A program made the translations under genes and the position numbers. Positions 5,608 to 36,814 of a stretch of DNA of 64,000 bases are shown here, piece by piece (the first letter of the stretch is position 1; each line of letters starts with the position of its first letter). A model generated the notes under the pieces. That model worked only from the letters and a program-made list of their open reading frames with translations. It was not told where the DNA came from and searched no databases. Source of the stretch: Acidobacteriota bacterium (GTDB taxonomy: Bacteria > Acidobacteriota > Terriglobia > Acidiferrales > 2-02-FULL-67-57); the NCBI GenBank assembly GCA_037442885.1, contig JBBIPK010000005.1:6315-70314 (forward strand), read 5' to 3'.

Positions 5608-7134
5608 CTATTTTGCCACGAGTTCAGCTTCCGCCAGCCGTGCCTCGAGGCTGGCGATGCGCTGGCGCTGCCGGGCTACGTAGTCCGCATCATCGAGTCC
5701 CTTGAGGTTGATCTCTACGTTCTCCAAGGCACCGCGCACGCCGGCCTGGGCCATGGCGCGTGCGGTGCGAATATCAGACGCCAGGGAGGCGCTGGTGATA
5801 GCCACTAATTGATTCAGATGCTCCAGGACGCGGGCTGTTGCCTCGGCCACTCCCAGCGGCACCTCGGCCGCGTGGCGCAACGCCGCTGCCACTGCCCTCT
5901 GGCGCTCCTGCTTCTCCGCATCGCTCGCTTGCGGCAGGCGGTAGGCGGCCAGCACGGCCTCGTAGCTCTCTGCGTCCAGGTCAATGGCTGCCCGGAGCTG
6001 CTCGGCGAGGCGGGCCAGCTCACTCGCGTGCGCCTCCAGGCGAGCGGCATGCTCGGCGTGAGCCTTCTTGGTTTTCGAGATGCCCGCCACCATCTGCCCC
6101 AGCGCCGCCGCCAGCGCGCCCGCTAGGGCGGCCACCGATCCACCCCCCGGCGTGGGCGTAGGAGCGGCCACGACGGAAATGAATCCTTCCACTTGCGCTG
6201 CCGGGGAGGTGGAGAGGACGGCCGCCAGGCGGTTCTCGAGGATCTGCTTGTCGGGATCGAAGTTTTCGAGCTGGAGGTAGAACTCCGCCGCGTCCTCCAG
6301 CGCCCGCTTGGGCACGAGGCCGACGATTTCACTGCCCACGATGGTGACGCCGTAGCGGGCCGCTTCGCTCCGCACCAGCTCGAAGACGCGGGAGATGGAA
6401 GTTTGTTCGAAGTCGGTGAGGTTGATGGAGACCTGGGCCAGGTTGCGCGCCTTGAGGTCCACGCCCATGGCTTTCACGTAGGGCAGGCCGCCGCTAGAAA
6501 AGCGGATGGTCTTGGCAATGGCCTTGGCGAGGCCGACGTCGGGGGTGTTCAGGTTGATGTTGTAGGCGATGAGAAACTTGCGGGCTCCCACTACCGTGGC
6601 GCCGGCAGTGGGATGAACGCGGGGGGTGCCGAAGTCGGGCGCGCGCTCGGGATTGGTGGCGATCTCCTCCCGCAAGCCTTCAAACTGGCCGCGGCGGATG
6701 TTTTCGAGATTCACGCGGTCGGGCCGCGTGGCGGCGGCTTCGTAGAGATAGACAGGGATGCGGTGGCGTCGCCAAATTTCCGCGCCCACCCAACGGGCGA
6801 TTTCCACGCAATCGTCCAGCGTAACGCCGCGGACAGGGACGAAAGGGACGACGTCAGCGGCCCCGATACGCGGATGCGCGCCCTGGTGCCGGGTCAGATC
6901 AATCAATTCCGCCGCTTTGCCCACCCCGCGGACAGCGGCTTCGCCGATGGCTTCCTTCGGCCCGACGATGGTAATGACCGAGCGGTTATGGTCGGCGTCC
7001 ATTTCCTGGTCGAGGAGGGAAATCCCGGGGACAGAGGTGAGCGCAGCGACAAGCTGGCGGACTTTTTCCGGGTCGCGGCCTTCGCTGAAATTGGGGACGC
7101 ATTCAACCAGGGTAGACACCGGGGGTCTCGTCAC
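5608..7134 (-). CDS. ftcD: bifunctional glutamate formimidoyltransferase / formimidoyl-THF cyclodeaminase
   Basis: 508 aa, GTG start. The N-terminus LVECVPNFSEGRDPEKV...HPRIGAADVVPFVP is the formiminotransferase signature. The C-terminal ~190 aa, an Ala-rich helical domain (GGGSVAALAGALAAALGQMV), is cyclodeaminase-like. Confidence 0.9.
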   Translation of the reverse strand: MTRPPVSTLVECVPNFSEGRDPEKVRQLVAALTSVPGISLLDQEMDADHNRSVITIVGPKEAIGEAAVRGVGKAAELIDLTRHQGAHPRIGAADVVPFVPVRGVTLDDCVEIARWVGAEIWRRHRIPVYLYEAAATRPDRVNLENIRRGQFEGLREEIATNPERAPDFGTPRVHPTAGATVVGARKFLIAYNINLNTPDVGLAKAIAKTIRFSSGGLPYVKAMGVDLKARNLAQVSINLTDFEQTSISRVFELVRSEAARYGVTIVGSEIVGLVPKRALEDAAEFYLQLENFDPDKQILENRLAAVLSTSPAAQVEGFISVVAAPTPTPGGGSVAALAGALAAALGQMVAGISKTKKAHAEHAARLEAHASELARLAEQLRAAIDLDAESYEAVLAAYRLPQASDAEKQERQRAVAAALRHAAEVPLGVAEATARVLEHLNQLVAITSASLASDIRTARAMAQAGVRGALENVEINLKGLDDADYVARQRQRIASLEARLAEAELVAK

Positions 7135-30340: not shown

Positions 30341-31237
30341 TCAGGGCCAGGCAACTTCAATCCAGACCGGGTCGTGGTCGGAGCTCTTGACCTTGCGAGC
30401 TACGCCGGAGGCGCGCACCTGCAGGCCGCGCGTGTAAATGCTGTCGAGGTGAAACCGAAAGAAGCCCCGGCGGCTGGTGGAGCCGGCTTCTCGCAAGGAG
30501 GTTTCCAAGCCGTGTTCCAGCATGAACTCATCAACGGATTTGGCCTGGTTGGAACGAAAAATCGGAACGACGTGTCCCAGCCAGCGGAAGGGCGAGGTGT
30601 TGAAGTCGCCCCCCACGACGACGCGCGCTATCGAGTCTCTGGCCGCCCGCTCGGCGATGGGGCGGAGTTGTTCGCGGCGGTCGCCGGGATTGAGGCGAGT
30701 ATCGAGGTGGAGGTTATAGACGCGCAACGCAACGCGGCCGACCTCGACGAGGGCAGTCAGGGCGATCCGTTGCCGGGTCCGGTAGCGGAGATTGAATTGC
30801 GGGAGCCGAATGACTTCGGTGTCGCGCAAGGGATAGCGGCTCAGTATGGCGAGGCCGTGAGTGCCGCCGGTTTCGGTTGTCCGGGCGGGGGCATAGACAT
30901 AGTTCAACCCGAGCGCCTCAGCCAGTTTCGCGGTTCGGCTTGAGCCTTCCGCGGGATAGTCCTCTATTTCCTGAATCAAGAACACGTCGGCGGCGCCAAC
31001 TTCCTCGCTCGTGCGGATAGCCTCGGCCAGCTTCAGCGGCTCAAGGGCATAGTGGACGTTGAAGGAAACAATGCGGAGCACCGAAGGGACTTCCGCGGGT
31101 GGCGGGCGGAGATTGGCAACAACGGGTGCAAAGTTCGCCTCCGGCGGACCCTGTGCGGAAACGAAAGCCTGGACGAAAGTCAGGAGCAGGAGGCCCAGAG
31201 TCGGGGGTGATGTCATTTCTTCCCGGTGCCCTGTCAT
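30341..31237 (-). CDS. exported endonuclease/exonuclease/phosphatase (EEP) family protein
   Basis: 298 aa. Signal peptide LGLLLLTFVQAFVSA. EEP blocks RIVSFNVHY, FLIQEI, GGDFN and SDHDPVW. Confidence 0.85.
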   Translation of the reverse strand: MTGHREEMTSPPTLGLLLLTFVQAFVSAQGPPEANFAPVVANLRPPPAEVPSVLRIVSFNVHYALEPLKLAEAIRTSEEVGAADVFLIQEIEDYPAEGSSRTAKLAEALGLNYVYAPARTTETGGTHGLAILSRYPLRDTEVIRLPQFNLRYRTRQRIALTALVEVGRVALRVYNLHLDTRLNPGDRREQLRPIAERAARDSIARVVVGGDFNTSPFRWLGHVVPIFRSNQAKSVDEFMLEHGLETSLREAGSTSRRGFFRFHLDSIYTRGLQVRASGVARKVKSSDHDPVWIEVAWP

Positions 31238-31323
31238 TCTACTTGTGGCTTAGAGGATTGCCAACTTGCCTTCCCCACATTTCTTGCCGAATGCCGCATG
31301 CAACAGCCCAACTGCAGGCGCCC

Positions 31324-32103
31324 TCAGGGCCACTGGTCGGCAAGGCGCGAGCGCAGGCGTTGCACGCAGGAAAAGAATGCCTGGGGCCGCTGCCTTTCGC
31401 TGCCGGCACACTCCTCCAACACAGCCTCGACCTGGGGCTTCAGTTTTCCCGGTTGAATCGCACCGAGAATCATCAGTGACGGCGCTACGCAGACCTCCCC
31501 AAAGGAAGCATGGGCGGGCTCGGCGAGAAACCGGAGGATGTCGCGAGCAGTCTCTTCATCCCAGCGCCGCGCGGTCACCTCGTTGTTCGGCTTTTCAGCC
31601 CAGAGTTTTTGCTGGCCTTCCCAGCCGCCCTCGGCGAGGTAGAAGAAGCGCACGGAGCGAAAGCCGGAGTCGAAGAGAAGGGTGCCAAGTGGTGTGAGGA
31701 CAGGTGGCACGCGGCGCATGAGCAAGCGGTAGGAGGTCTCGTGCTGAGGCGCTTCGCAGGCCAGCATGACGTGGCCGCCGGGCGGGATAAGCGCGCTGAG
31801 ATGCCGGAAGAGAAAGCGGTCGAGGCCGGCGGTCGCCAGGTTGGCTTCAATGGAGCGATCCCGGGCGGCCGTGACACTCGAATGATACTCGGTGATCTCG
31901 AGCCAAGGGAACACACCGCGCCCGCCGCGACTGAAGACTGCCTCGACCACCGGAGGAAGAAAGGTGTGTTTGCCCGCTGTGAGCAGGAGGCGGAAGGAGG
32001 TCCAACCGGACTTACTTCCCGGTCGAACATCGACGAGCCGCAGGGAGTAGGGCCCGAGCGGCGTGCCGTCCAGCGCAGCTGAGAGTTCAGGGACCTGCGT
32101 CAT
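31324..32103 (-). CDS. hypothetical protein
   Basis: 259-aa ORF with ATG start and good GC3 bias. No motif I can name with confidence. Confidence 0.6.
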   Translation of the reverse strand: MTQVPELSAALDGTPLGPYSLRLVDVRPGSKSGWTSFRLLLTAGKHTFLPPVVEAVFSRGGRGVFPWLEITEYHSSVTAARDRSIEANLATAGLDRFLFRHLSALIPPGGHVMLACEAPQHETSYRLLMRRVPPVLTPLGTLLFDSGFRSVRFFYLAEGGWEGQQKLWAEKPNNEVTARRWDEETARDILRFLAEPAHASFGEVCVAPSLMILGAIQPGKLKPQVEAVLEECAGSERQRPQAFFSCVQRLRSRLADQWP

Positions 32104-32184: not shown

Positions 32185-33543
32185 ATGGAATTCAAGACGA
32201 TTATTGAGCCGTTCAAGATCAAGATGGTCGAGCCGATTCGCTGGACCACGCAGGGCGAGCGCGAGCAACTCTTGCACGAAGCGGGCTACAACCTGTTCCT
32301 GGTCCCGGCCGAAGACATCTTGATTGACCTGCTCTCGGACTCCGGCACCGGTGCGATGAGCACGGAGCAGTGGGCTGCCATGATGCGGGGAGACGAGAGC
32401 TACGCCGGGAGCGTGAGCTTTGACCATCTGCGCCGCACCGTGCAGGAGATTTTCGGCTACCAGCACGTGATTCCCACTCACCAGGGGCGCGCTGCCGAAC
32501 GCATTCTCTTCACTGTGATGTGCAAGAAAGGCGACGTCGTGCCCAACAACACGCACTTTGACACCACGCGCGCCAATGTCGAGTTCGTCGGCGCTGAGGC
32601 GGTGGACCTTCCCATCCCCGAAGGGAGGGAGCCGGCGACTCTCCATCCCTTCAAGGGGAACATGGACGTGGCCGCGTTGGAGCAACTGATCGAGCGCGTG
32701 GGTGCTCAGCGCATTCCGCTGGTGATGATGACGATAACGAACAATTCCGGCGGCGGGCAGCCGGTTTCGCTGGAGAACATCCGCGCCGTGCGCGCTGTCT
32801 GCGACCGCCACCATCTGCCTCTCTACTTCGACGCCTGCCGCTTTGCCGAGAACTCCTACTTCATCAAGCAGCGCGAGCCAGGCTATGCCGCGAAGACACC
32901 GAAAGAGATTGCACAGGAAACGTTCCGCCTAGGCGATGGCTGCACGATGTCGGCGAAGAAAGACGGCCTGGCAAACATCGGCGGGTTTCTCTGTACGAAC
33001 GACGACCGGCTGGCTCAACAGGAGAAGAACCTTCTCATCCTGACGGAAGGCTACCCCACCTACGGCGGACTGGCGGGGCGCGACCTGGAAGCCATTGCCG
33101 TCGGATTGGAAGAGGTGTTGGATGAAGACTACCTCCGCTACCGCATTGTTTCGACGGCCTATCTGGGCAAGCACATCGCCGAGTACGGCGTCCCCATCGT
33201 GCAGCCGCCGGGCGGGCATGCCATCTATTTGGATGCGCGCGCCTTCTGCCCGCATATCCCACCGCGTGAATTTCCGGGCGTGACGCTGGCGGGTGAACTC
33301 TATCTGGCCGGAGGCATCCGCTCCTGCGAGATCGGGACGCTGATGTTCGGGGAGCATGCCACGATGGATCTGGTGCGGCTGGCGATTCCGCGCCGCGTCT
33401 ATACGCAAAGCCATGTGGACTATGTGATTGAAGTCATCCGGCGCGTTTGGGAGCAGCGCGAGCGCATTGTCGGGCTGCGGCTGGTCTACAGCGCGCCCTT
33501 TCTGCGGCATTTCACGGCCCGCTTTGAGCGGTTGGAGCGGTAA
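32185..33543 (+). CDS. beta-eliminating lyase: tryptophanase / tyrosine phenol-lyase family
   Basis: 452 aa, GGGGGAGG Shine-Dalgarno. EPFKIKMVEPI..., DLLSDSGTGAMS, PTHQGRAAE, the PLP-lysine context CTMSAKKDGLANIGGFL, and C-terminal FLRHFTARFE. Confidence 0.9.
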   Translation: MEFKTIIEPFKIKMVEPIRWTTQGEREQLLHEAGYNLFLVPAEDILIDLLSDSGTGAMSTEQWAAMMRGDESYAGSVSFDHLRRTVQEIFGYQHVIPTHQGRAAERILFTVMCKKGDVVPNNTHFDTTRANVEFVGAEAVDLPIPEGREPATLHPFKGNMDVAALEQLIERVGAQRIPLVMMTITNNSGGGQPVSLENIRAVRAVCDRHHLPLYFDACRFAENSYFIKQREPGYAAKTPKEIAQETFRLGDGCTMSAKKDGLANIGGFLCTNDDRLAQQEKNLLILTEGYPTYGGLAGRDLEAIAVGLEEVLDEDYLRYRIVSTAYLGKHIAEYGVPIVQPPGGHAIYLDARAFCPHIPPREFPGVTLAGELYLAGGIRSCEIGTLMFGEHATMDLVRLAIPRRVYTQSHVDYVIEVIRRVWEQRERIVGLRLVYSAPFLRHFTARFERLER

Positions 33544-35743
33544 GCACCGGGTTGGGCACGGTGGGCGAGAAAAAGTGGGCAAACGGCTCAAAGGCATCCC
33601 GCAGCAGTTCGAGGTATTTCTCCCGGTCATAGCCTTCGGTGCCATTCAACAAGGCAAACGCGCGGGCGCGTTCGTGGGGGAGCGTGGCCTTTGCGTTGGT
33701 GACCACGTAGGTGATGCATTCGCCTGGACGCAGACCAATGCCGCGGGCGGCCAGTTGCTGCGCGGCGACGGCCACCAGACTCGCTTTCTCGTAGCCTTCG
33801 GGTGATTGGGTCAGGCGTTTGTGGATGAGGAGATCTTCCCAGGCAATCTGTCCGCTCTGCAGTTTTTCCTCGTAGCGTTCGAGCACGGCGCGTGCTTCCA
33901 CAAGCTTCTGCCGGTAGGAGGGAGCATCGTAGGCTTCGCTCAGCAACTGCAAGACTTCTTCCTGCATGCGCGCGACGATGCGCGGCGTGTCGTGCCGGCG
34001 CAGCTCCAGCCCTCGCACTTTCAGCTCCCCCGCTTCGGACACAGCAAAAAACCGATTCGGTACGGGGATGTAGTCGAACTGTTTCGAAGGCAAGAACACG
34101 ATGTAGCGATAGACCGCTTCGAGGGCAATGGGCAGGCGCGTGGCGGCGGAAAGTGTGCGGGCAAGCTGTTCGTAGTCGGCGCGGGTTGCTTCTTCTTTCT
34201 GCACATACATGGAATCCACGATGGCGTGGAGGAGCCGGAAGCCCGCTCCTTCGGCGATTTCCTTGGCACGCAGCAAGGTTTCGCGGGCGATGGCATTGAT
34301 GGCTTCGTGCGCCTCGATGCGGCCGACGCGGGCGTTCTTGTAACCGAGATAGCCGAAGCAGCAGACAAGCAGCCACTTGGCGGCGTCGCGGCGCAGTTGG
34401 TAGCTGCGACGCAGCGCAGGTGCAAGCGCCGGGCCGAGCTGCTCTTTGTAGCGTCGGCGCTTTTCGATCAGCGGCGCCACCGTACGTCCCGCGACGCCGC
34501 GCCGCCGCTGGCAGATGCGGTAGCCGAGCTCGGGTAGGGGCGGGCTCTGCGGGCAGCAACCACAGTTGATCGTTTCCGAGGAAACATTGCACCGAGCCAT
34601 GATGGTGGGGAACATCGAAGGCCAGTCCAGCTCCGCCACGTTTTCGTGGAAGCCGAGGCGGGGCGGAAAAATCAAGCCGCCGCGGTCGGCGAGTTGCAGT
34701 TGGTCGGGGCGCTTGAAGGCCTCGGGCTCGCTCTTCTGCTCGGGGATGAGAACGCCGTCGCGATAGAGCACTTCCATCTGCATGTAGCTGATGCCCGTGC
34801 CGGTGGTGGTGCGGGCGGCGTACTGCACGGGCAGCTTCGTCAGCCGCGCGAGTTCCCACAGTCCTGCCAGCTCGCATTCTTCCGTGATGAATGAGTTCTG
34901 CGTGTCCACATGCAGGCGGCCGAAGAGCGTGGTGCTGCTGGCTTTGAAGAGAATGCGGCCGTAGGAAATGAGGCTGCGCGCCCGCGTGCGCTGCACGGCG
35001 TGGTCAGGGTCGCGGTTCAACGGCAGCGGAATCCGGTATCGCGCTGCCTGGCGCAATAGCCCGGGCAGCAGCGTTGAATCTCCGTAGTCCGAGACGATCA
35101 GGTCAGGATCGTAGCGTGCCAGCAACCGCTGGAAAGTCTTGGCTACCGGTTCGTCGGCGTCGCTGATCTCGCAGCTTTCGTCGCCCACCTCGACTTCGAG
35201 CGCTGCGCGCACGCCATGGCCGGGATTCAAAGCCTCTGCCCCGTGCAGCCGCAGGCGCATCACTTGCAAGGGAGGCAGCGCATAGTCGAGTGCCCATTCA
35301 TCATCCTGGCAGGCCAGGGCGCGGACGCGCCCGGAGGCGTCGGCTTCCAGCTCGCACCAGGCGAGGGGGAAAACCTGCTTCTCAAAGCAGTAGAGGGCAG
35401 CCGGCAGCAAGTCACTGTTGTAGAGACGCAGCGTTGGATCGAAACGCCGAACAAACGTGCGGATGGCGGTGGATCGCGTGGGGATGGCGATGGAAAGCGC
35501 CAGCACGCGGCAGGTTCGATTGTCCCAGAAGTTACGCCGCTCGGTGAGCCGGCAGGTCACCGGCCAACCCCGTGCCCCGAGCACCCATTGCAGGCGGAGC
35601 AGCCGTGCCTCCGGCCCCTGCACGTAGAACACCGGGGAGAATGCATCACTCAGCCGGTAGCGTTTCCGGTTCGGATCCATCACCCACAGCGTCATCCCCT
35701 GTGGGTTGGGGTAGAGGTCGAACAGCCAGCCGCGAATCTGCAT
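33512..35743 (-). CDS. divergent family-B (Pol II-like) DNA polymerase with substituted exonuclease motifs
   Basis: ATG at 35743 preceded by AAGGA. 743 aa. Motif A ELDWPSMFPTI, motif B KWLLVCCFGYLGY, motif C LLHAIVDSMYV, and KxY-region KVRGLELRRHDTP. ExoI/II/III positions read RLRLH, SDYGDSTLL and FITEE. The ORF-track extension to 35965 is rejected. Confidence 0.8.
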   Translation of the reverse strand: MQIRGWLFDLYPNPQGMTLWVMDPNRKRYRLSDAFSPVFYVQGPEARLLRLQWVLGARGWPVTCRLTERRNFWDNRTCRVLALSIAIPTRSTAIRTFVRRFDPTLRLYNSDLLPAALYCFEKQVFPLAWCELEADASGRVRALACQDDEWALDYALPPLQVMRLRLHGAEALNPGHGVRAALEVEVGDESCEISDADEPVAKTFQRLLARYDPDLIVSDYGDSTLLPGLLRQAARYRIPLPLNRDPDHAVQRTRARSLISYGRILFKASSTTLFGRLHVDTQNSFITEECELAGLWELARLTKLPVQYAARTTTGTGISYMQMEVLYRDGVLIPEQKSEPEAFKRPDQLQLADRGGLIFPPRLGFHENVAELDWPSMFPTIMARCNVSSETINCGCCPQSPPLPELGYRICQRRRGVAGRTVAPLIEKRRRYKEQLGPALAPALRRSYQLRRDAAKWLLVCCFGYLGYKNARVGRIEAHEAINAIARETLLRAKEIAEGAGFRLLHAIVDSMYVQKEEATRADYEQLARTLSAATRLPIALEAVYRYIVFLPSKQFDYIPVPNRFFAVSEAGELKVRGLELRRHDTPRIVARMQEEVLQLLSEAYDAPSYRQKLVEARAVLERYEEKLQSGQIAWEDLLIHKRLTQSPEGYEKASLVAVAAQQLAARGIGLRPGECITYVVTNAKATLPHERARAFALLNGTEGYDREKYLELLRDAFEPFAHFFSPTVPNPVLTAPTAQSGP

Positions 35744-35999
35744 CGAGCAGTCCTTTCGCACGTACAATTCGTTCCATTGCCTCCAGCCGCTTCTCCTGGT
35801 CAATCGCCACAGCCAGCAGGATGGCTTCGAGTGGGTTCGCGTGACACTGGTAGGTGGCAGCCTCGGTATAGAGCCGCACTCGTTGGAATACCTGGTCGAA
35901 ATAGGCCTGGTCTTCGCGATAGAGCGCACGCCGGAACTTCCCCCAGCGGCGCGCTTCTTCATCAATCTGCTGGCGAAACGTCGGAACCGTGCGACCCAT
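35646..35999 (-). CDS. hypothetical 117-aa protein, middle gene of the polymerase operon
   Basis: ATG at 35999 preceded by GAGGTG that overlaps the stop of the upstream gene. Helical-looking FRRALYREDQAYFDQVFQRVRLYTEAATYQCHANPLEAILLAVAIDQEKRLEAMERIV. The last ~33 codons overlap the polymerase start out of frame. Confidence 0.6.
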   Translation of the reverse strand: MGRTVPTFRQQIDEEARRWGKFRRALYREDQAYFDQVFQRVRLYTEAATYQCHANPLEAILLAVAIDQEKRLEAMERIVRAKGLLDADSRLAVRPLPQPTGDDAVGDGSEPETLPAE

Positions 36000-36007
36000 G
36001 GCTCACC

Positions 36008-36634
36008 TCAAGCCGCCGGCAGCCGCGACCGCTCGCAGACGAGCGCGATCCCTGCGTCGGCGTCCACCGCAAAACGCCAGACTTGTTCTGCCTGACGCTC
36101 GAGCTGGAAGAAAAAACCTGCCCGCGCGGCCGCGGGGCGGGGAAGTGTCCCGCCGGAAAACACTGCTGTGGCTATGGGCCATTGCCGCAGTCGCGTCAGG
36201 GCGGCGAGCGTCTTCCGGTAGGAAGCAGCGGCGTCAAAGTCGCTGATGTCCTCGTCGCAAAACAGGTCGGGCAGCCCGGTGATCACCGCCACTTGAGCCG
36301 GGAAGCGAGCCAGCACATCCGGCAGGCGGCGGATCAGCTCTTCCAATTGAAAACAGGTGAAGGCGCGTGCCACCCGGATGGATTCGTTCAGTTGTGCAGA
36401 GGGAATGCGCCGCGAGCACGCCAGCCGTGCCAGCAGCAGGGGGTTGAAGCAGTTCGCGCCGTCCACAAACAACACCAAGCGCCGGCTCAGGTACACACCT
36501 GGCAGGAGGTAGTGCGCCAGCCGCGGTGTTTCCTCACAGCCGTAGAAAACTGCCAGCCCGCGCCGCGGCAGTACCCAGGGGCGAGAGGAAGAGGAGAGAA
36601 ATGGAAGCGATGCAGCCATCCGGCGGTACCCCAC
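36008..36634 (-). CDS. RecA/RadA-fold protein with degenerate Walker A/B motifs (ImuA-analogous?)
   Basis: 208 aa from GTG 36634 (alternative ATG 36619). The layout GLAVFYGCEETPRLAHYLL / LVLFVDGANCFNPLLLARLA / IRVARAFTCFQLEELI / VAVITGLPDLFCDEDI mirrors the Rad51/RadA core blocks, but there is no GxxGxGKT and no Walker-B Asp. Confidence 0.6.
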   Translation of the reverse strand: MGYRRMAASLPFLSSSSRPWVLPRRGLAVFYGCEETPRLAHYLLPGVYLSRRLVLFVDGANCFNPLLLARLACSRRIPSAQLNESIRVARAFTCFQLEELIRRLPDVLARFPAQVAVITGLPDLFCDEDISDFDAAASYRKTLAALTRLRQWPIATAVFSGGTLPRPAAARAGFFFQLERQAEQVWRFAVDADAGIALVCERSRLPAA

Positions 36635-36651: not shown

Positions 36652-36680
36652 ATTGTAAGCGAATAAAAAGCGAAAGTCAA
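36652..36680 (-). promoter_or_regulatory. near-consensus sigma-70 promoter (TTGACT-17 nt-TACAAT) with the direct repeat TTCGCT-N5-TTCGCT filling the spacer
   Basis: The minus strand reads TTGACT TTCGCTTTTTATTCGCT TACAAT. It lies in the only AT-rich patch of the divergent intergenic region, 17-33 nt upstream of the candidate starts of the RecA-like gene. Confidence 0.55.
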
Positions 36681-36814
36681 GAGAAATTTCAAAAAGCCTC
36701 TTCTGCGCGAAATAGCTCACTCGAAGCTGAGTCTCGCAACCTCTTCAACGCCTGGTTGCTTTCCTATCTCTTTTGTTTTCTTTGCAATAGCCAAGTGACT
36801 TTTTGGCAGTGCGG

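What the first reader, a model, noticed from the sequence alone, without database searches (positions are those of the whole stretch)
34202..35257. Polymerase catalytic motifs: ExoI DxE -> RLRLH, ExoII NxxxFD -> DYGDSTLL, ExoIII YxxxD -> FITEE, motif C YGDTDS -> HAIVDS
Seen in my translation, with residues counted from the ATG at 35743:
- aa 163-167 RLRLH (35243-35257) sits where ExoI D-I-E is expected.
- aa 211-244 YDPDLIVSDYGDSTLLPGLLRQAARYRIPLPL lines up by eye with the ExoII region of Pol II-type enzymes but lacks the Asn and the F/Y-D.
- FITEECEL replaces Y-x3-D.
- Motif A retains its Asp (ELDWPSMFPTI, 34601-34633).
- Motif B is KWLLVCCFGYLGY (34340-34378).
- Motif C is LLHAIVDSMYV (34202-34234), keeping only the second Asp of DTD.

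Established knowledge: the exo carboxylates are essential for proofreading, and the motif A Asp plus the second motif C Asp are the main metal ligands in B-family polymerases.

Inference: the enzyme is proofreading-dead. It may be an active low-fidelity polymerase or a catalytically crippled scaffold. An extra Cys cluster (NCGCCPQSPPLPELGYRIC) sits just after motif A.
Basis: partly seen in the sequence, partly recalled or inferred. Interest (0 to 1): 0.7.

Follow-up and report, generated by a model that had tools for sequence, protein, structure and literature searches.

The report
Known proofreading-dead bacterial PolB2 repair polymerase
The gene is an ordinary bacterial member of the already described PolB2 family: a B-family DNA polymerase that has lost proofreading but kept its catalytic residues, sits in a three-gene operon, and here lies behind a DNA-damage (SOS) operator.

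Summary
The gene (33512-35743, minus strand, 743 aa) is a real family-B polymerase. A profile-profile alignment confirms R165/H167 at the ExoI Asp/Glu and Y220/L225 at the ExoII Asn/Asp. It does not confirm FITEE as ExoIII, because ExoIII falls in a ~53-residue deletion. Across 78 diverse homologues the motif A Asp, motif B Lys, motif C His and second motif C Asp are invariant or nearly so.

This is the published signature of PolB2 (archaeal B2, bacterial G2): ExoI not conserved, ExoIII missing, YxDTD changed to HxxxD. The two upstream genes complete the published "PolB2 mutasome" operon:
- an inactive RadA homologue (iRadA);
- a small protein starting MGRT (PPB2).

The archaeal enzyme Dpo2 is an active, exonuclease-free extender of mismatched and lesion-containing primer ends.

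The Cys cluster is family-wide, and two of its four Cys align with the KOD Cys428 and Cys442.

One addition of my own: the operon promoter carries a direct repeat, TTCGC-N6-TTCGC. Elsewhere this repeat precedes lexA, recA and Y-family polymerase genes, so the operon is probably SOS-controlled.

Verdict: a correct observation of an already known system; low interest.

The parts
33512..35743 (-). polB2: catalytic subunit, 743 aa, family-B DNA polymerase of the B2/G2 (PolB2) group
   Evidence: ORF and translation. Pfam DNA_pol_B. PDB matches. AF2 model with pLDDT 95 and Foldseek hits to archaeal PolBs. More than 3400 homologues. Homologue N-termini agree with the ATG at 35743; D9 and W20 are at least 90% conserved.
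35243..35257 (-). Degenerate ExoI strand (aa 163-167, RLRLH): R165 replaces the Asp and H167 replaces the Glu
   Evidence: hhalign against canonical PolB exo domains. The columns are not conserved in the family: position 165 is R23/S13/E11 and position 167 is E26/D9 of 78.
35066..35089 (-). Degenerate ExoII (aa 219-226, DYGDSTLL): Y220 replaces the Asn and L225 replaces the catalytic Asp
   Evidence: Family column 225 is L29/I27 of 78. G221 and D222 are conserved.
35012..35017 (-). N243-R244: the position of the PolB2-specific D(K/R) loop motif. In the published models it contacts the PPB2 N-terminal arm.
   Evidence: R244 is in 75/78 homologues. Position 243 is N23/D21/G18. Motif described in PMC7544198 and PMC11791011.
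34877..34912 (-). HVD...NSFITEE (aa 278-289): the junction of a ~53-residue deletion that removes ExoIII
   Evidence: hhalign places YxxxD in a gap. H278, D280 and F285 are at least 90% conserved. Position 289 is Glu in 54 and Asp in 7 of 78 sequences.
34601..34633 (-). Motif A (ELDWPSMFPTI) with the catalytic D373. F378 sits at the usual steric-gate Tyr.
   Evidence: D373 is in 78/78. Position 378 is Y73/F5. Alignment to KOD DFRSLYPS.
34511..34567 (-). Cys4 cluster (aa 393-411): C394, C396, C397, C411
   Evidence: Conserved in 75, 69, 74 and 75 of 78 homologues. C397 and C411 align with KOD C428 and C442.
34340..34378 (-). Motif B (KWLLVCCFGYLGY). K456 is kept; the canonical Asn-Ser is replaced.
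   Evidence: K456 is in 77/78. Position 461 is T/V/C and position 462 is C/S. Homologues carry an intein at this site.
34202..34234 (-). Motif C as HxxxD (H506-A-I-V-D510): the PolB2 version of YxDTD
   Evidence: H506 is in 75/78 and D510 in 78/78. Position 508 is I48/L21. PMC8764526 gives HxxxD as the PolB2 form.
35646..35999 (-). PPB2: 117-aa helical partner protein with N-terminus MGRTVPTFR. Its 3' end overlaps polB2 by 98 nt.
   Evidence: ORF. The MGRT start is seen in nearly all of the loci with a PPB2 match, and 60 of 64 loci with enough upstream DNA have such a match. Homologues are annotated PF26485 DUF8156. PMC11791011.
36008..36634 (-). iRadA: 208-aa inactivated RadA/Rad51 homologue (GTG start at 36634; alternative ATG at 36619)
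   Evidence: A profile of 23 homologues hits P. furiosus RadA at E = 4.3e-9, with the Walker B Asp column not Asp. There is no G....GK[ST] motif. It lies upstream of PPB2 and PolB2 in 51 of 64 loci.
36652..36685 (-). Operon promoter (TTGACT-17-TACAAT). The direct-repeat operator TTCGCTTTTTATTCGCT lies between -35 and -10, and a third degenerate repeat lies upstream. Probable LexA (SOS) box.
   Evidence: The same element lies upstream of iRadA in 16 acidobacterial loci. The same motif precedes recA, lexA, Y-family polymerase, DinB-superfamily and fpg/nei genes in metagenome contigs.

Best explanation
The gene encodes the catalytic subunit of a bacterial PolB2 mutasome (group G2 of family-B polymerases, derived from archaeal B2).

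Shown here:
- It has the complete family-B fold.
- Its exonuclease domain is a decayed remnant. ExoI and ExoII have no carboxylates, and ExoIII lies in a ~53-residue deletion.
- Its polymerase site keeps the two metal-binding Asp (D373, D510) and the motif B Lys. Motif C has the family's characteristic HxxxD form.
- It is the last gene of a three-gene operon, iRadA-PPB2-polB2.
- The operon's sigma-70 promoter contains a direct-repeat operator. Elsewhere that operator precedes lexA, recA and dinB-type genes.

Inferred from the literature on homologues:
- After DNA damage, LexA cleavage derepresses the operon.
- PolB2, one iRadA and a PPB2 trimer assemble. The PPB2 MGRT arm inserts near the active site.
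- The complex acts as a proofreading-free, distributive polymerase that extends primer ends opposite lesions or mismatches. This fixes damage-targeted mutations, much as eukaryotic Pol zeta does.
For: Family-B identity and fold.

Exo remnant.

Conserved catalytic residues in 78 homologues of 29-75% identity.

Family size and spread:
- More than 3400 word-index hits at E <= 1e-10, and 761 50%-identity clusters at E <= 1e-30.
- Found in Acidobacteriota, Nitrospirota, Chloroflexota, Bacteroidota and others, plus Bathyarchaeia and Thermoplasmatota.

Operon:
- iRadA before PPB2 before PolB2 on one strand in 51 of 64 loci with enough flank. PPB2 is present in 60 of 64.
- MGRT start nearly universal.
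- A Thermoplasmatota homologue has the same three-gene layout.
- iRadA is a RadA homologue without Walker A or B.

Operator.

Literature:
- PMC7544198: in B2/G2, ExoI is not conserved, ExoIII is missing, motif C has one Asp, and there is a D(K/R) motif.
- PMC8764526 and PMC7390963: Dpo2 is active, lacks exonuclease, extends mismatches, is damage-inducible, and is responsible for targeted mutagenesis.
- PMC11791011: predicted iRadA-PPB2-PolB2 heteropentamer; bacteria have only this gene order; lexA is enriched nearby.
- PMC12926913: G2/PolB2 among bacterial polymerases.
Against: - No bacterial PolB2 has been assayed, so activity, fidelity and complex formation are extrapolated from Sulfolobus Dpo2 and from AlphaFold models.
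- Neither iRadA nor PolB2 here has a recognisable beta-clamp motif.
- The Asp of the D(K/R) motif is Asn in this protein.
- F378 replaces the usual motif A Tyr, as in only 5 of 78 homologues.
- I built no phylogenetic tree.
- LexA binding to the operator is inferred from gene association only. An exact GTTC-N7-GTTC is not present at the operon.
Confidence: 0.87

Rival explanations
1. The protein is a catalytically dead pseudo-polymerase. It serves only as a scaffold or DNA-binding subunit. This was the original prediction for PolB2.
For: - The first Asp of DTD is lost.
- The motif B Asn-Ser and all exo carboxylates are lost.
- It travels with two non-enzymatic partner proteins.
Against: - D373 and D510 are invariant and K456 and H506 nearly so across 78 divergent homologues. 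A pure scaffold would not need this.
- Homologues carry homing inteins in motif B.
- Dpo2, with the same HxxxD motif, is as active as the replicase Dpo1 (PMC8764526).
- In B-family structures the second Asp is the metal ligand (PMC8764526 discussion).
Confidence: 0.06
2. The protein is an E. coli Pol II-type SOS polymerase (polB) that merely looks divergent and still has a working proofreading site built from other residues.
For: - JGI annotations call homologues 'DNA polymerase II'.
- D147 is 86% acidic and E289 78% acidic within the exo remnant.
Against: - NCBIfam Pol II models score E = 5e-8, against 8e-108 for the archaeal-type PRK05761 model.
- PDB Pol II scores 5e-33, against 2e-108 for archaeal PolB.
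- ExoI and ExoII carboxylates are absent in both candidate registers, and ExoIII is deleted.
- The archaeal homologue has no exonuclease (PMC8764526).
Confidence: 0.03
3. The polymerase belongs to a mobile element or defence system, such as a casposon, a protein-primed PolB element or an anti-phage module, and is not a chromosomal repair operon.
For: - A PADLOC model named 'HEase' hits the protein at E = 6e-27.
- The family reached bacteria by horizontal transfer (PMC7544198).
Against: - The PADLOC hit covers only the polymerase part of an intein-bearing PolB model (positions 1390-1631 of 1671).
- G+C content is flat across the window.
- Flanking genes differ between genomes and are housekeeping genes.
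- No integrase, cas1 or terminal repeats were seen near the operon.
- The operon shares its operator with recA and lexA.
Confidence: 0.03

Closest known systems
Bacterial PolB2 (group G2) with iRadA and PPB2, the predicted 'PolB2 mutasome' (Kazlauskas 2020, PMC7544198; Timinskas 2025, PMC11791011; PMC12926913)
   Same: - Degenerate ExoI and ExoII, ExoIII missing, HxxxD motif C.
- Gene order iRadA-PPB2-PolB2.
- PPB2 MGRT arm with R3 and R9.
- iRadA lacks the ATPase motifs and the N-terminal domain.
   Different: - No clamp-binding motif was found in either protein.
- The D(K/R) position is N-R.
- The direct-repeat SOS operator in the promoter is not mentioned in the papers I read, which report only lexA enrichment nearby.
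Sulfolobus islandicus / S. solfataricus Dpo2 (archaeal PolB2) (PMC7390963, PMC8764526)
   Same: - Same family.
- IID/IVD-type motif C with an invariant His.
- No exo active site.
- Same two partner genes, and damage-inducible expression.
   Different: - Dpo2 is about 120 residues shorter and its exo domain is more decayed.
- Its regulation is archaeal (Orc1/Cdc6-type) rather than by LexA.
- It would use PCNA rather than the beta clamp.
Eukaryotic Pol zeta (Rev3-Rev7-Pol31-Pol32)
   Same: A B-family polymerase with an inactivated exonuclease domain. It is multisubunit, extends mismatched or lesion termini, and is responsible for damage-induced mutagenesis. This is a functional analogy drawn in PMC8764526 and PMC11791011.
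   Different: It is not a member of the same clade, has unrelated accessory subunits, and keeps the canonical DTD motif.
E. coli Pol V mutasome (UmuD'2C-RecA)
   Same: An SOS-controlled mutasome built from a polymerase, a RecA/Rad51-family protein and a small oligomeric subunit whose N-terminal arm reaches the active site (PMC11791011).
   Different: The catalytic subunit is Y-family, RecA is the active recombinase, and the stoichiometry differs.
E. coli Pol II (polB)
   Same: A bacterial family-B polymerase that is SOS-induced and acts as an extender.
   Different: Pol II is a single subunit with an active DEDDy exonuclease and YxDTD. It is only a distant match.

Membership tests
PolB2 (archaeal B2 / bacterial G2 family-B polymerases) | Family-B polymerase fold with N-terminal, exo-like, palm, fingers and thumb regions | tested here: met
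   Pfam DNA_pol_B, E = 3e-24. PDB profile hit at 2e-108. AF2 pLDDT 95 and TM-score 0.71-0.74 to archaeal PolBs.
PolB2 (archaeal B2 / bacterial G2 family-B polymerases) | ExoI not conserved (no DxE) | tested here: met
   R165 and H167 sit at the ExoI Asp and Glu. The family columns are variable.
PolB2 (archaeal B2 / bacterial G2 family-B polymerases) | ExoII catalytic Asp substituted | tested here: met
   L225 is aligned to the ExoII Asp. The column is L/I in 56 of 78.
PolB2 (archaeal B2 / bacterial G2 family-B polymerases) | ExoIII missing | tested here: met
   YxxxD falls in a ~53-residue gap of the query in hhalign. There are 23 residues between HxD and ELxRL, against about 76 in KOD.
PolB2 (archaeal B2 / bacterial G2 family-B polymerases) | Motif C is HxxxD instead of YxDTD: invariant His and a single Asp | tested here: met
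   H506-A-I-V-D510. His is in 75/78 and Asp in 78/78.
PolB2 (archaeal B2 / bacterial G2 family-B polymerases) | Group-specific D(K/R) motif in the loop after the ExoII helix | tested here: inconclusive
   The query has N243-R244-D245. R is in 75/78, but the preceding position is N23/D21/G18/S12 in my alignment.
PolB2 (archaeal B2 / bacterial G2 family-B polymerases) | Closer to archaeal PolB groups than to bacterial Pol II, with archaeal relatives in the same family | tested here: met
   NCBIfam PRK05761-type model 8e-108, against Pol II 5e-8. PDB 2e-108, against 5e-33. Bathyarchaeia and Thermoplasmatota homologues at 34-37% identity, one with the same operon. No tree was built.
PolB2 mutasome operon | Genes in the order iRadA-PPB2-PolB2 on one strand (the only order reported in bacteria) | tested here: met
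   Window genes at 36634-36008, 35999-35646 and 35743-33512, all on the minus strand. The same order occurs in 51 of 64 related loci.
PolB2 mutasome operon | PPB2: a small helical protein with a conserved N-terminal MGRT arm and Arg at positions 3 and 9 | tested here: met
   MGRTVPTFR. MGRT is seen in nearly all related loci. Homologues carry PF26485. The helical fold was not modelled here.
PolB2 mutasome operon | iRadA: a RadA/Rad51 core without ATPase motifs and without the N-terminal domain | tested here: met
   Profile hit to RadA at 4.3e-9, with the Walker B Asp column not Asp. No G....GK[ST] motif and only 208 aa long.
PolB2 mutasome operon | C-terminal beta-clamp motif in iRadA or PolB2 (present in only a fraction of systems) | tested here: not met
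   No Q-h-x-h-[FLWM] motif lies near either C-terminus. Chloroflexota iRadA homologues do end in QLRLF-type motifs. The literature does not treat this as a defining feature.
PolB2 mutasome operon | DNA-damage-inducible expression | tested here: inconclusive
   The operator in the promoter is shared with recA, lexA, Y-family polymerase, DinB-superfamily and fpg/nei genes. No expression or binding data can be obtained here.
PolB2 mutasome operon | Heteropentamer PolB2:iRadA:PPB2(3); polymerase active without exonuclease; mismatch/lesion extender | not testable with these tools
   Known only from Sulfolobus biochemistry (PMC8764526) and AlphaFold-Multimer models (PMC11791011).
E. coli Pol II-type polymerase | Active DEDDy 3'-5' exonuclease and a YxDTD motif C | tested here: not met

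The most novel reading that the evidence does not exclude
The four nearly invariant cysteines between motif A and the fingers (C394, C396, C397, C411) may form a PolB2-specific metal site (Zn or Fe-S) or a redox-sensitive site. This would be more than the single disulfide of Thermococcales PolB. The site could couple polymerase activity or complex assembly to oxidative damage. None of the PolB2 papers I read mention this cluster.
Probability: 0.2. Interest if true: 0.45.

Novelty: already known. Interest (0 to 1): 0.15.

Why it matters
The finding adds little as a discovery. The loss of ExoI-III, the HxxxD motif C and the iRadA-PPB2 partners of bacterial PolB2 were published between 2020 and 2026.

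It is useful for annotation. Sources currently label this protein and its homologues 'hypothetical', 'DNA polymerase domain-containing protein' or 'DNA polymerase II'. They should be read as the catalytic subunit of an SOS-type mutasome.

The modest new point is the direct-repeat operator. It ties the acidobacterial PolB2 operon to the lexA/recA regulon. That gives a concrete, testable handle on how a system acquired from archaea was wired into bacterial damage signalling.

Tried and rejected
- **HMMER's ExoI register.** HMMER put ExoI at A142/A144. I rejected this in favour of R165/H167. The reasons were profile-profile alignment, canonical PolBs that share the pre-ExoI hairpin, and the P-x-L-(K/R)-h-h-x-h register. 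Neither register has carboxylates.
- **FITEE as ExoIII.** Rejected. hhalign leaves YxxxD in a gap, and the literature says ExoIII is missing (PMC7544198).
- **PADLOC 'homing endonuclease' hit.** This is an artefact of a model built on an intein-containing PolB.
- **Single-sequence searches with iRadA.** These gave only E of about 0.07-0.9. A 23-sequence profile was needed.
- **PPB2 family searches.** PPB2 gave no hit in the local Pfam, NCBIfam or PADLOC libraries. It was identified by synteny, the MGRT motif and precomputed PF26485 on homologues.
- **Exact alpha-proteobacterial LexA box.** GTTC-N7-GTTC occurs twice in the window at chance level and not at the operon. The real element is TTCGC-N6-TTCGC.
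- **Clamp-binding motif.** Not found.
- **Cluster look-up for names.** It gave few names.
- **Search with the P. abyssi exo fragment.** It returned only 26 proteins, but these were enough for the canonical alignment A3.
Full report
**1. The observation**

The minus-strand ORF 33512-35965 contains an ATG at 35743. From that start it encodes 743 residues.
- RLRLH, aa 163-167;
- DYGDSTLL, aa 219-226;
- FITEE, aa 285-289;
- ELDWPSMFPTI, aa 371-381;
- the Cys cluster, aa 393-411;
- KWLLVCCFGYLGY, aa 456-468;
- LLHAIVDSMYV, aa 504-514.

The start at 35743 fits the N-termini of homologues (MRIEGW..., MRLQGW...). It also fits conserved residues D9 and W20.

The protein is a real family-B polymerase:
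- Pfam DNA_pol_B, E = 3e-24.
- Thermococcales PolB structures, E = 2.5e-46 with the single sequence and 2e-108 with a family profile.
- An AlphaFold2 model with mean pLDDT 95 and pTM 0.93. It superposes on archaeal PolB structures at TM-score 0.71-0.74.

**2. Motif equivalences**

I built an alignment of 78 homologues at 29-75% identity (A1). They came from a word-index search and an exhaustive HMMER search of 1.84 billion representatives. I built a second alignment of canonical, exo-proficient archaeal PolB N-terminal halves (A3).

hhalign of A1 against A3 (probability 99.9) gives the following:
- R165 lies on the ExoI Asp and H167 on the ExoI Glu.
- Y220 lies on the ExoII Asn and L225 on the ExoII Asp.
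- The ExoIII YxxxD falls in a gap.

The query has 23 residues between the conserved HxD and the ELxRL helix. KOD polymerase has about 76. ExoIII is therefore deleted rather than replaced by FITEE.

HMMER alone had chosen a different ExoI register, A142/A144. I reject that register for two reasons. Several canonical PolBs carry the same beta-hairpin insertion before ExoI. Neither register supplies carboxylates.

In the family, the ExoI columns are variable and the ExoII Asp column is Leu or Ile in 56 of 78 sequences.

The polymerase site, in contrast, is under strong constraint:
- D373 in 78/78;
- K456 in 77/78;
- H506 in 75/78;
- D510 in 78/78;
- the position of the first DTD Asp is Ile or Leu in 69/78.

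**3. What it is**

These features are the published definition of PolB2.
- Kazlauskas et al. [quoted passage not shown] They also report that motif C has one conserved Asp, the motif C His is highly conserved, and a D(K/R) motif is group-specific.
- Feng et al. 2022 (PMC8764526) give the motif C change as YxDTD to HxxxD.

The window adds the genomic signature described by Timinskas et al. 2025 (PMC11791011). Directly upstream on the same strand lie two genes.
- A 208-aa protein (36008-36634). A profile of it matches P. furiosus RadA at E = 4.3e-9. It has no Walker A motif and no Walker B Asp. This is iRadA.
- A 117-aa protein (35646-35999) that begins MGRTVPTFR. This is the conserved MGRT arm of PPB2, with Arg at positions 3 and 9.

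In 64 related genome loci with enough upstream sequence, 60 have PPB2. In 51 the order is iRadA-PPB2-PolB2. A Thermoplasmatota homologue at 34% identity has the same layout.

The family occurs in Acidobacteriota (the closest relatives, 56-77% identity), Nitrospirota, Chloroflexota, Bacteroidota, Ignavibacteria and others. It also occurs in Bathyarchaeia and Thermoplasmatota.

E. coli Pol II is a much poorer match than archaeal PolBs.

**4. How it most likely works**

*Shown here:*
- The polymerase has an intact, conserved two-Asp and Lys active site.
- It has a gutted exonuclease site.
- It is encoded with iRadA and PPB2.

*Inferred from homologues:*
- Sulfolobus Dpo2, which has IID in motif C, is as active as the replicase in primer extension.
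- It has no detectable 3'-5' exonuclease and is distributive.
- It inserts nucleotides with 1e-4 to 1e-5 error frequencies.
- It extends mismatched and lesion-paired termini efficiently (PMC8764526).
- It is damage-inducible and solely responsible for targeted mutagenesis (PMC7390963).
- AlphaFold-Multimer models predict a PolB2:iRadA:PPB2(3) heteropentamer. In those models the PPB2 arm lies near the active site (PMC11791011).

The acidobacterial enzyme is therefore best read as an exonuclease-free translesion 'extender'. It is not a generally low-fidelity enzyme and not a dead scaffold.

Some homologues carry LAGLIDADG inteins inserted at motif B. This is a further indirect sign that the site matters.

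**5. Regulation (my addition)**

The only sigma-70-like promoter in the region is TTGACT-17-TACAAT at 36680-36652 on the minus strand. It lies just upstream of iRadA.
- Its spacer is TTCGCTTTTTATTCGCT. This is a direct repeat of TTCGCT with an 11-bp period, and a third degenerate repeat lies upstream.
- The same element sits between -35 and -10 upstream of iRadA in 16 acidobacterial loci.

I scanned metagenome contigs for TTCGCYTTTTNTTCGC. I then took the first ORF downstream of each match on the motif strand. The downstream genes were:
- recA, 4 loci;
- lexA, 4 loci;
- Y-family polymerases, 2 loci;
- DinB-superfamily proteins, 3 loci;
- an fpg/nei glycosylase;
- a UvrD-like helicase (assigned by eye);
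- iRadA, 2 loci.

I confirmed a representative subset with Pfam (one RecA, two LexA, both Y-family polymerases, one DinB-superfamily protein and the fpg/nei glycosylase).

The element has the geometry of the alpha-proteobacterial GTTC-N7-GTTC direct-repeat LexA box (PMC3323433, PMC8565304). The title of Mazon et al. 2006 links that box to Acidobacterium capsulatum; I know this paper only from the reference list of PMC3323433. It is therefore very probably the SOS box, and the operon is probably repressed by LexA. This fits the reported enrichment of lexA near bacterial polB2 (PMC11791011). I did not find the operator described in the PolB2 papers I read.

**6. The Cys cluster**

C394, C396, C397 and C411 are conserved in 69-75 of the 78 homologues. 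They are a family trait, not a peculiarity of this gene.

C397 and C411 align with KOD Cys428 and Cys442. From my own knowledge, those two residues form a disulfide in that enzyme. The other two Cys have no counterpart in KOD.

Whether the four bind a metal cannot be decided here. The PolB2 papers I read do not mention them.

**7. Differences from the published description**
- No beta-clamp motif was found in iRadA or PolB2. The literature reports such motifs in only a fraction of systems.
- The D(K/R) position reads N-R.
- Motif A has Phe instead of the usual Tyr, as in only 5 of 78 homologues.

None of these conflicts with membership.

**8. Verdict**

The main inference, proofreading-dead and possibly active, is right as far as it goes.

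All the listed features are already in the literature for bacterial PolB2. Novelty: already known. Interest: low.

Noticed in passing
window 36652-36685 (-); L001 ~6946-6975; L002 ~7024-7056; L083-L162: The direct-repeat operator TTCGC-N6-TTCGC is embedded between -35 and -10 of the operon promoter. It is conserved upstream of iRadA in 16 acidobacterial loci. In metagenome contigs it also precedes recA, lexA, Y-family polymerase, DinB-superfamily and fpg/nei genes. It is probably the LexA (SOS) box of these bacteria.
   Followed up: yes
window 35646-35743 (-): The 3' end of PPB2 overlaps the 5' end of polB2 by 98 nt in another frame (50 nt in L001). The PPB2 tail PLPQP(T/A)GDD is conserved and overlies the conserved PolB2 N-terminus GW(L/I)xDLYPxPQG. 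The tail's conservation may therefore be a by-product of the overlap. The overlap also suggests translational coupling.
   Followed up: partly
homologues P0128, P0133, P0170 (and about 10 other representatives of 900-1300 aa): Some PolB2-family proteins carry an intein at motif B, some with a LAGLIDADG homing endonuclease. The insertion lies at about query residues 461-463, just before the conserved Cys/Ser.
   Followed up: partly
window 34511-34567 (-): The C-x-C-C...C cluster is nearly invariant across the PolB2 family. Two of the four Cys align with KOD Cys428 and Cys442. The other two have no KOD counterpart. This may be a metal or redox site, and the PolB2 papers I read do not mention it.
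   Followed up: partly
L002 6996-7030: A second, inverted copy of the operator with its own TTGACA/TATACT promoter points away from the PolB2 operon. No obvious gene lies downstream of it.
   Followed up: no
iRadA homologues in L029, L030, L032, L033, L046: The Chloroflexota/Anaerolineales iRadA proteins (L030, L032, L033, L046) and the Terriglobia iRadA (L029) end in QLRLF-, QLNMF- or PRLF-type beta-clamp motifs. The acidobacterial proteins, including the one in the window, do not.
   Followed up: partly
window 34610-34612 (-), residue F378: The motif A residue that is normally the steric-gate Tyr is Phe here. Only 5 of 78 homologues have Phe. Any effect on ribonucleotide discrimination is unknown.
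   Followed up: no
window 30341-32103 (-): A DUF1122 protein (31324-32103) and an endonuclease/exonuclease/phosphatase-family protein with a signal-like N-terminus (30341-31237) lie just beyond the convergent 452-aa plus-strand ORF at 32185-33543 (not annotated). I did not examine whether they are linked to the PolB2 operon.
   Followed up: no
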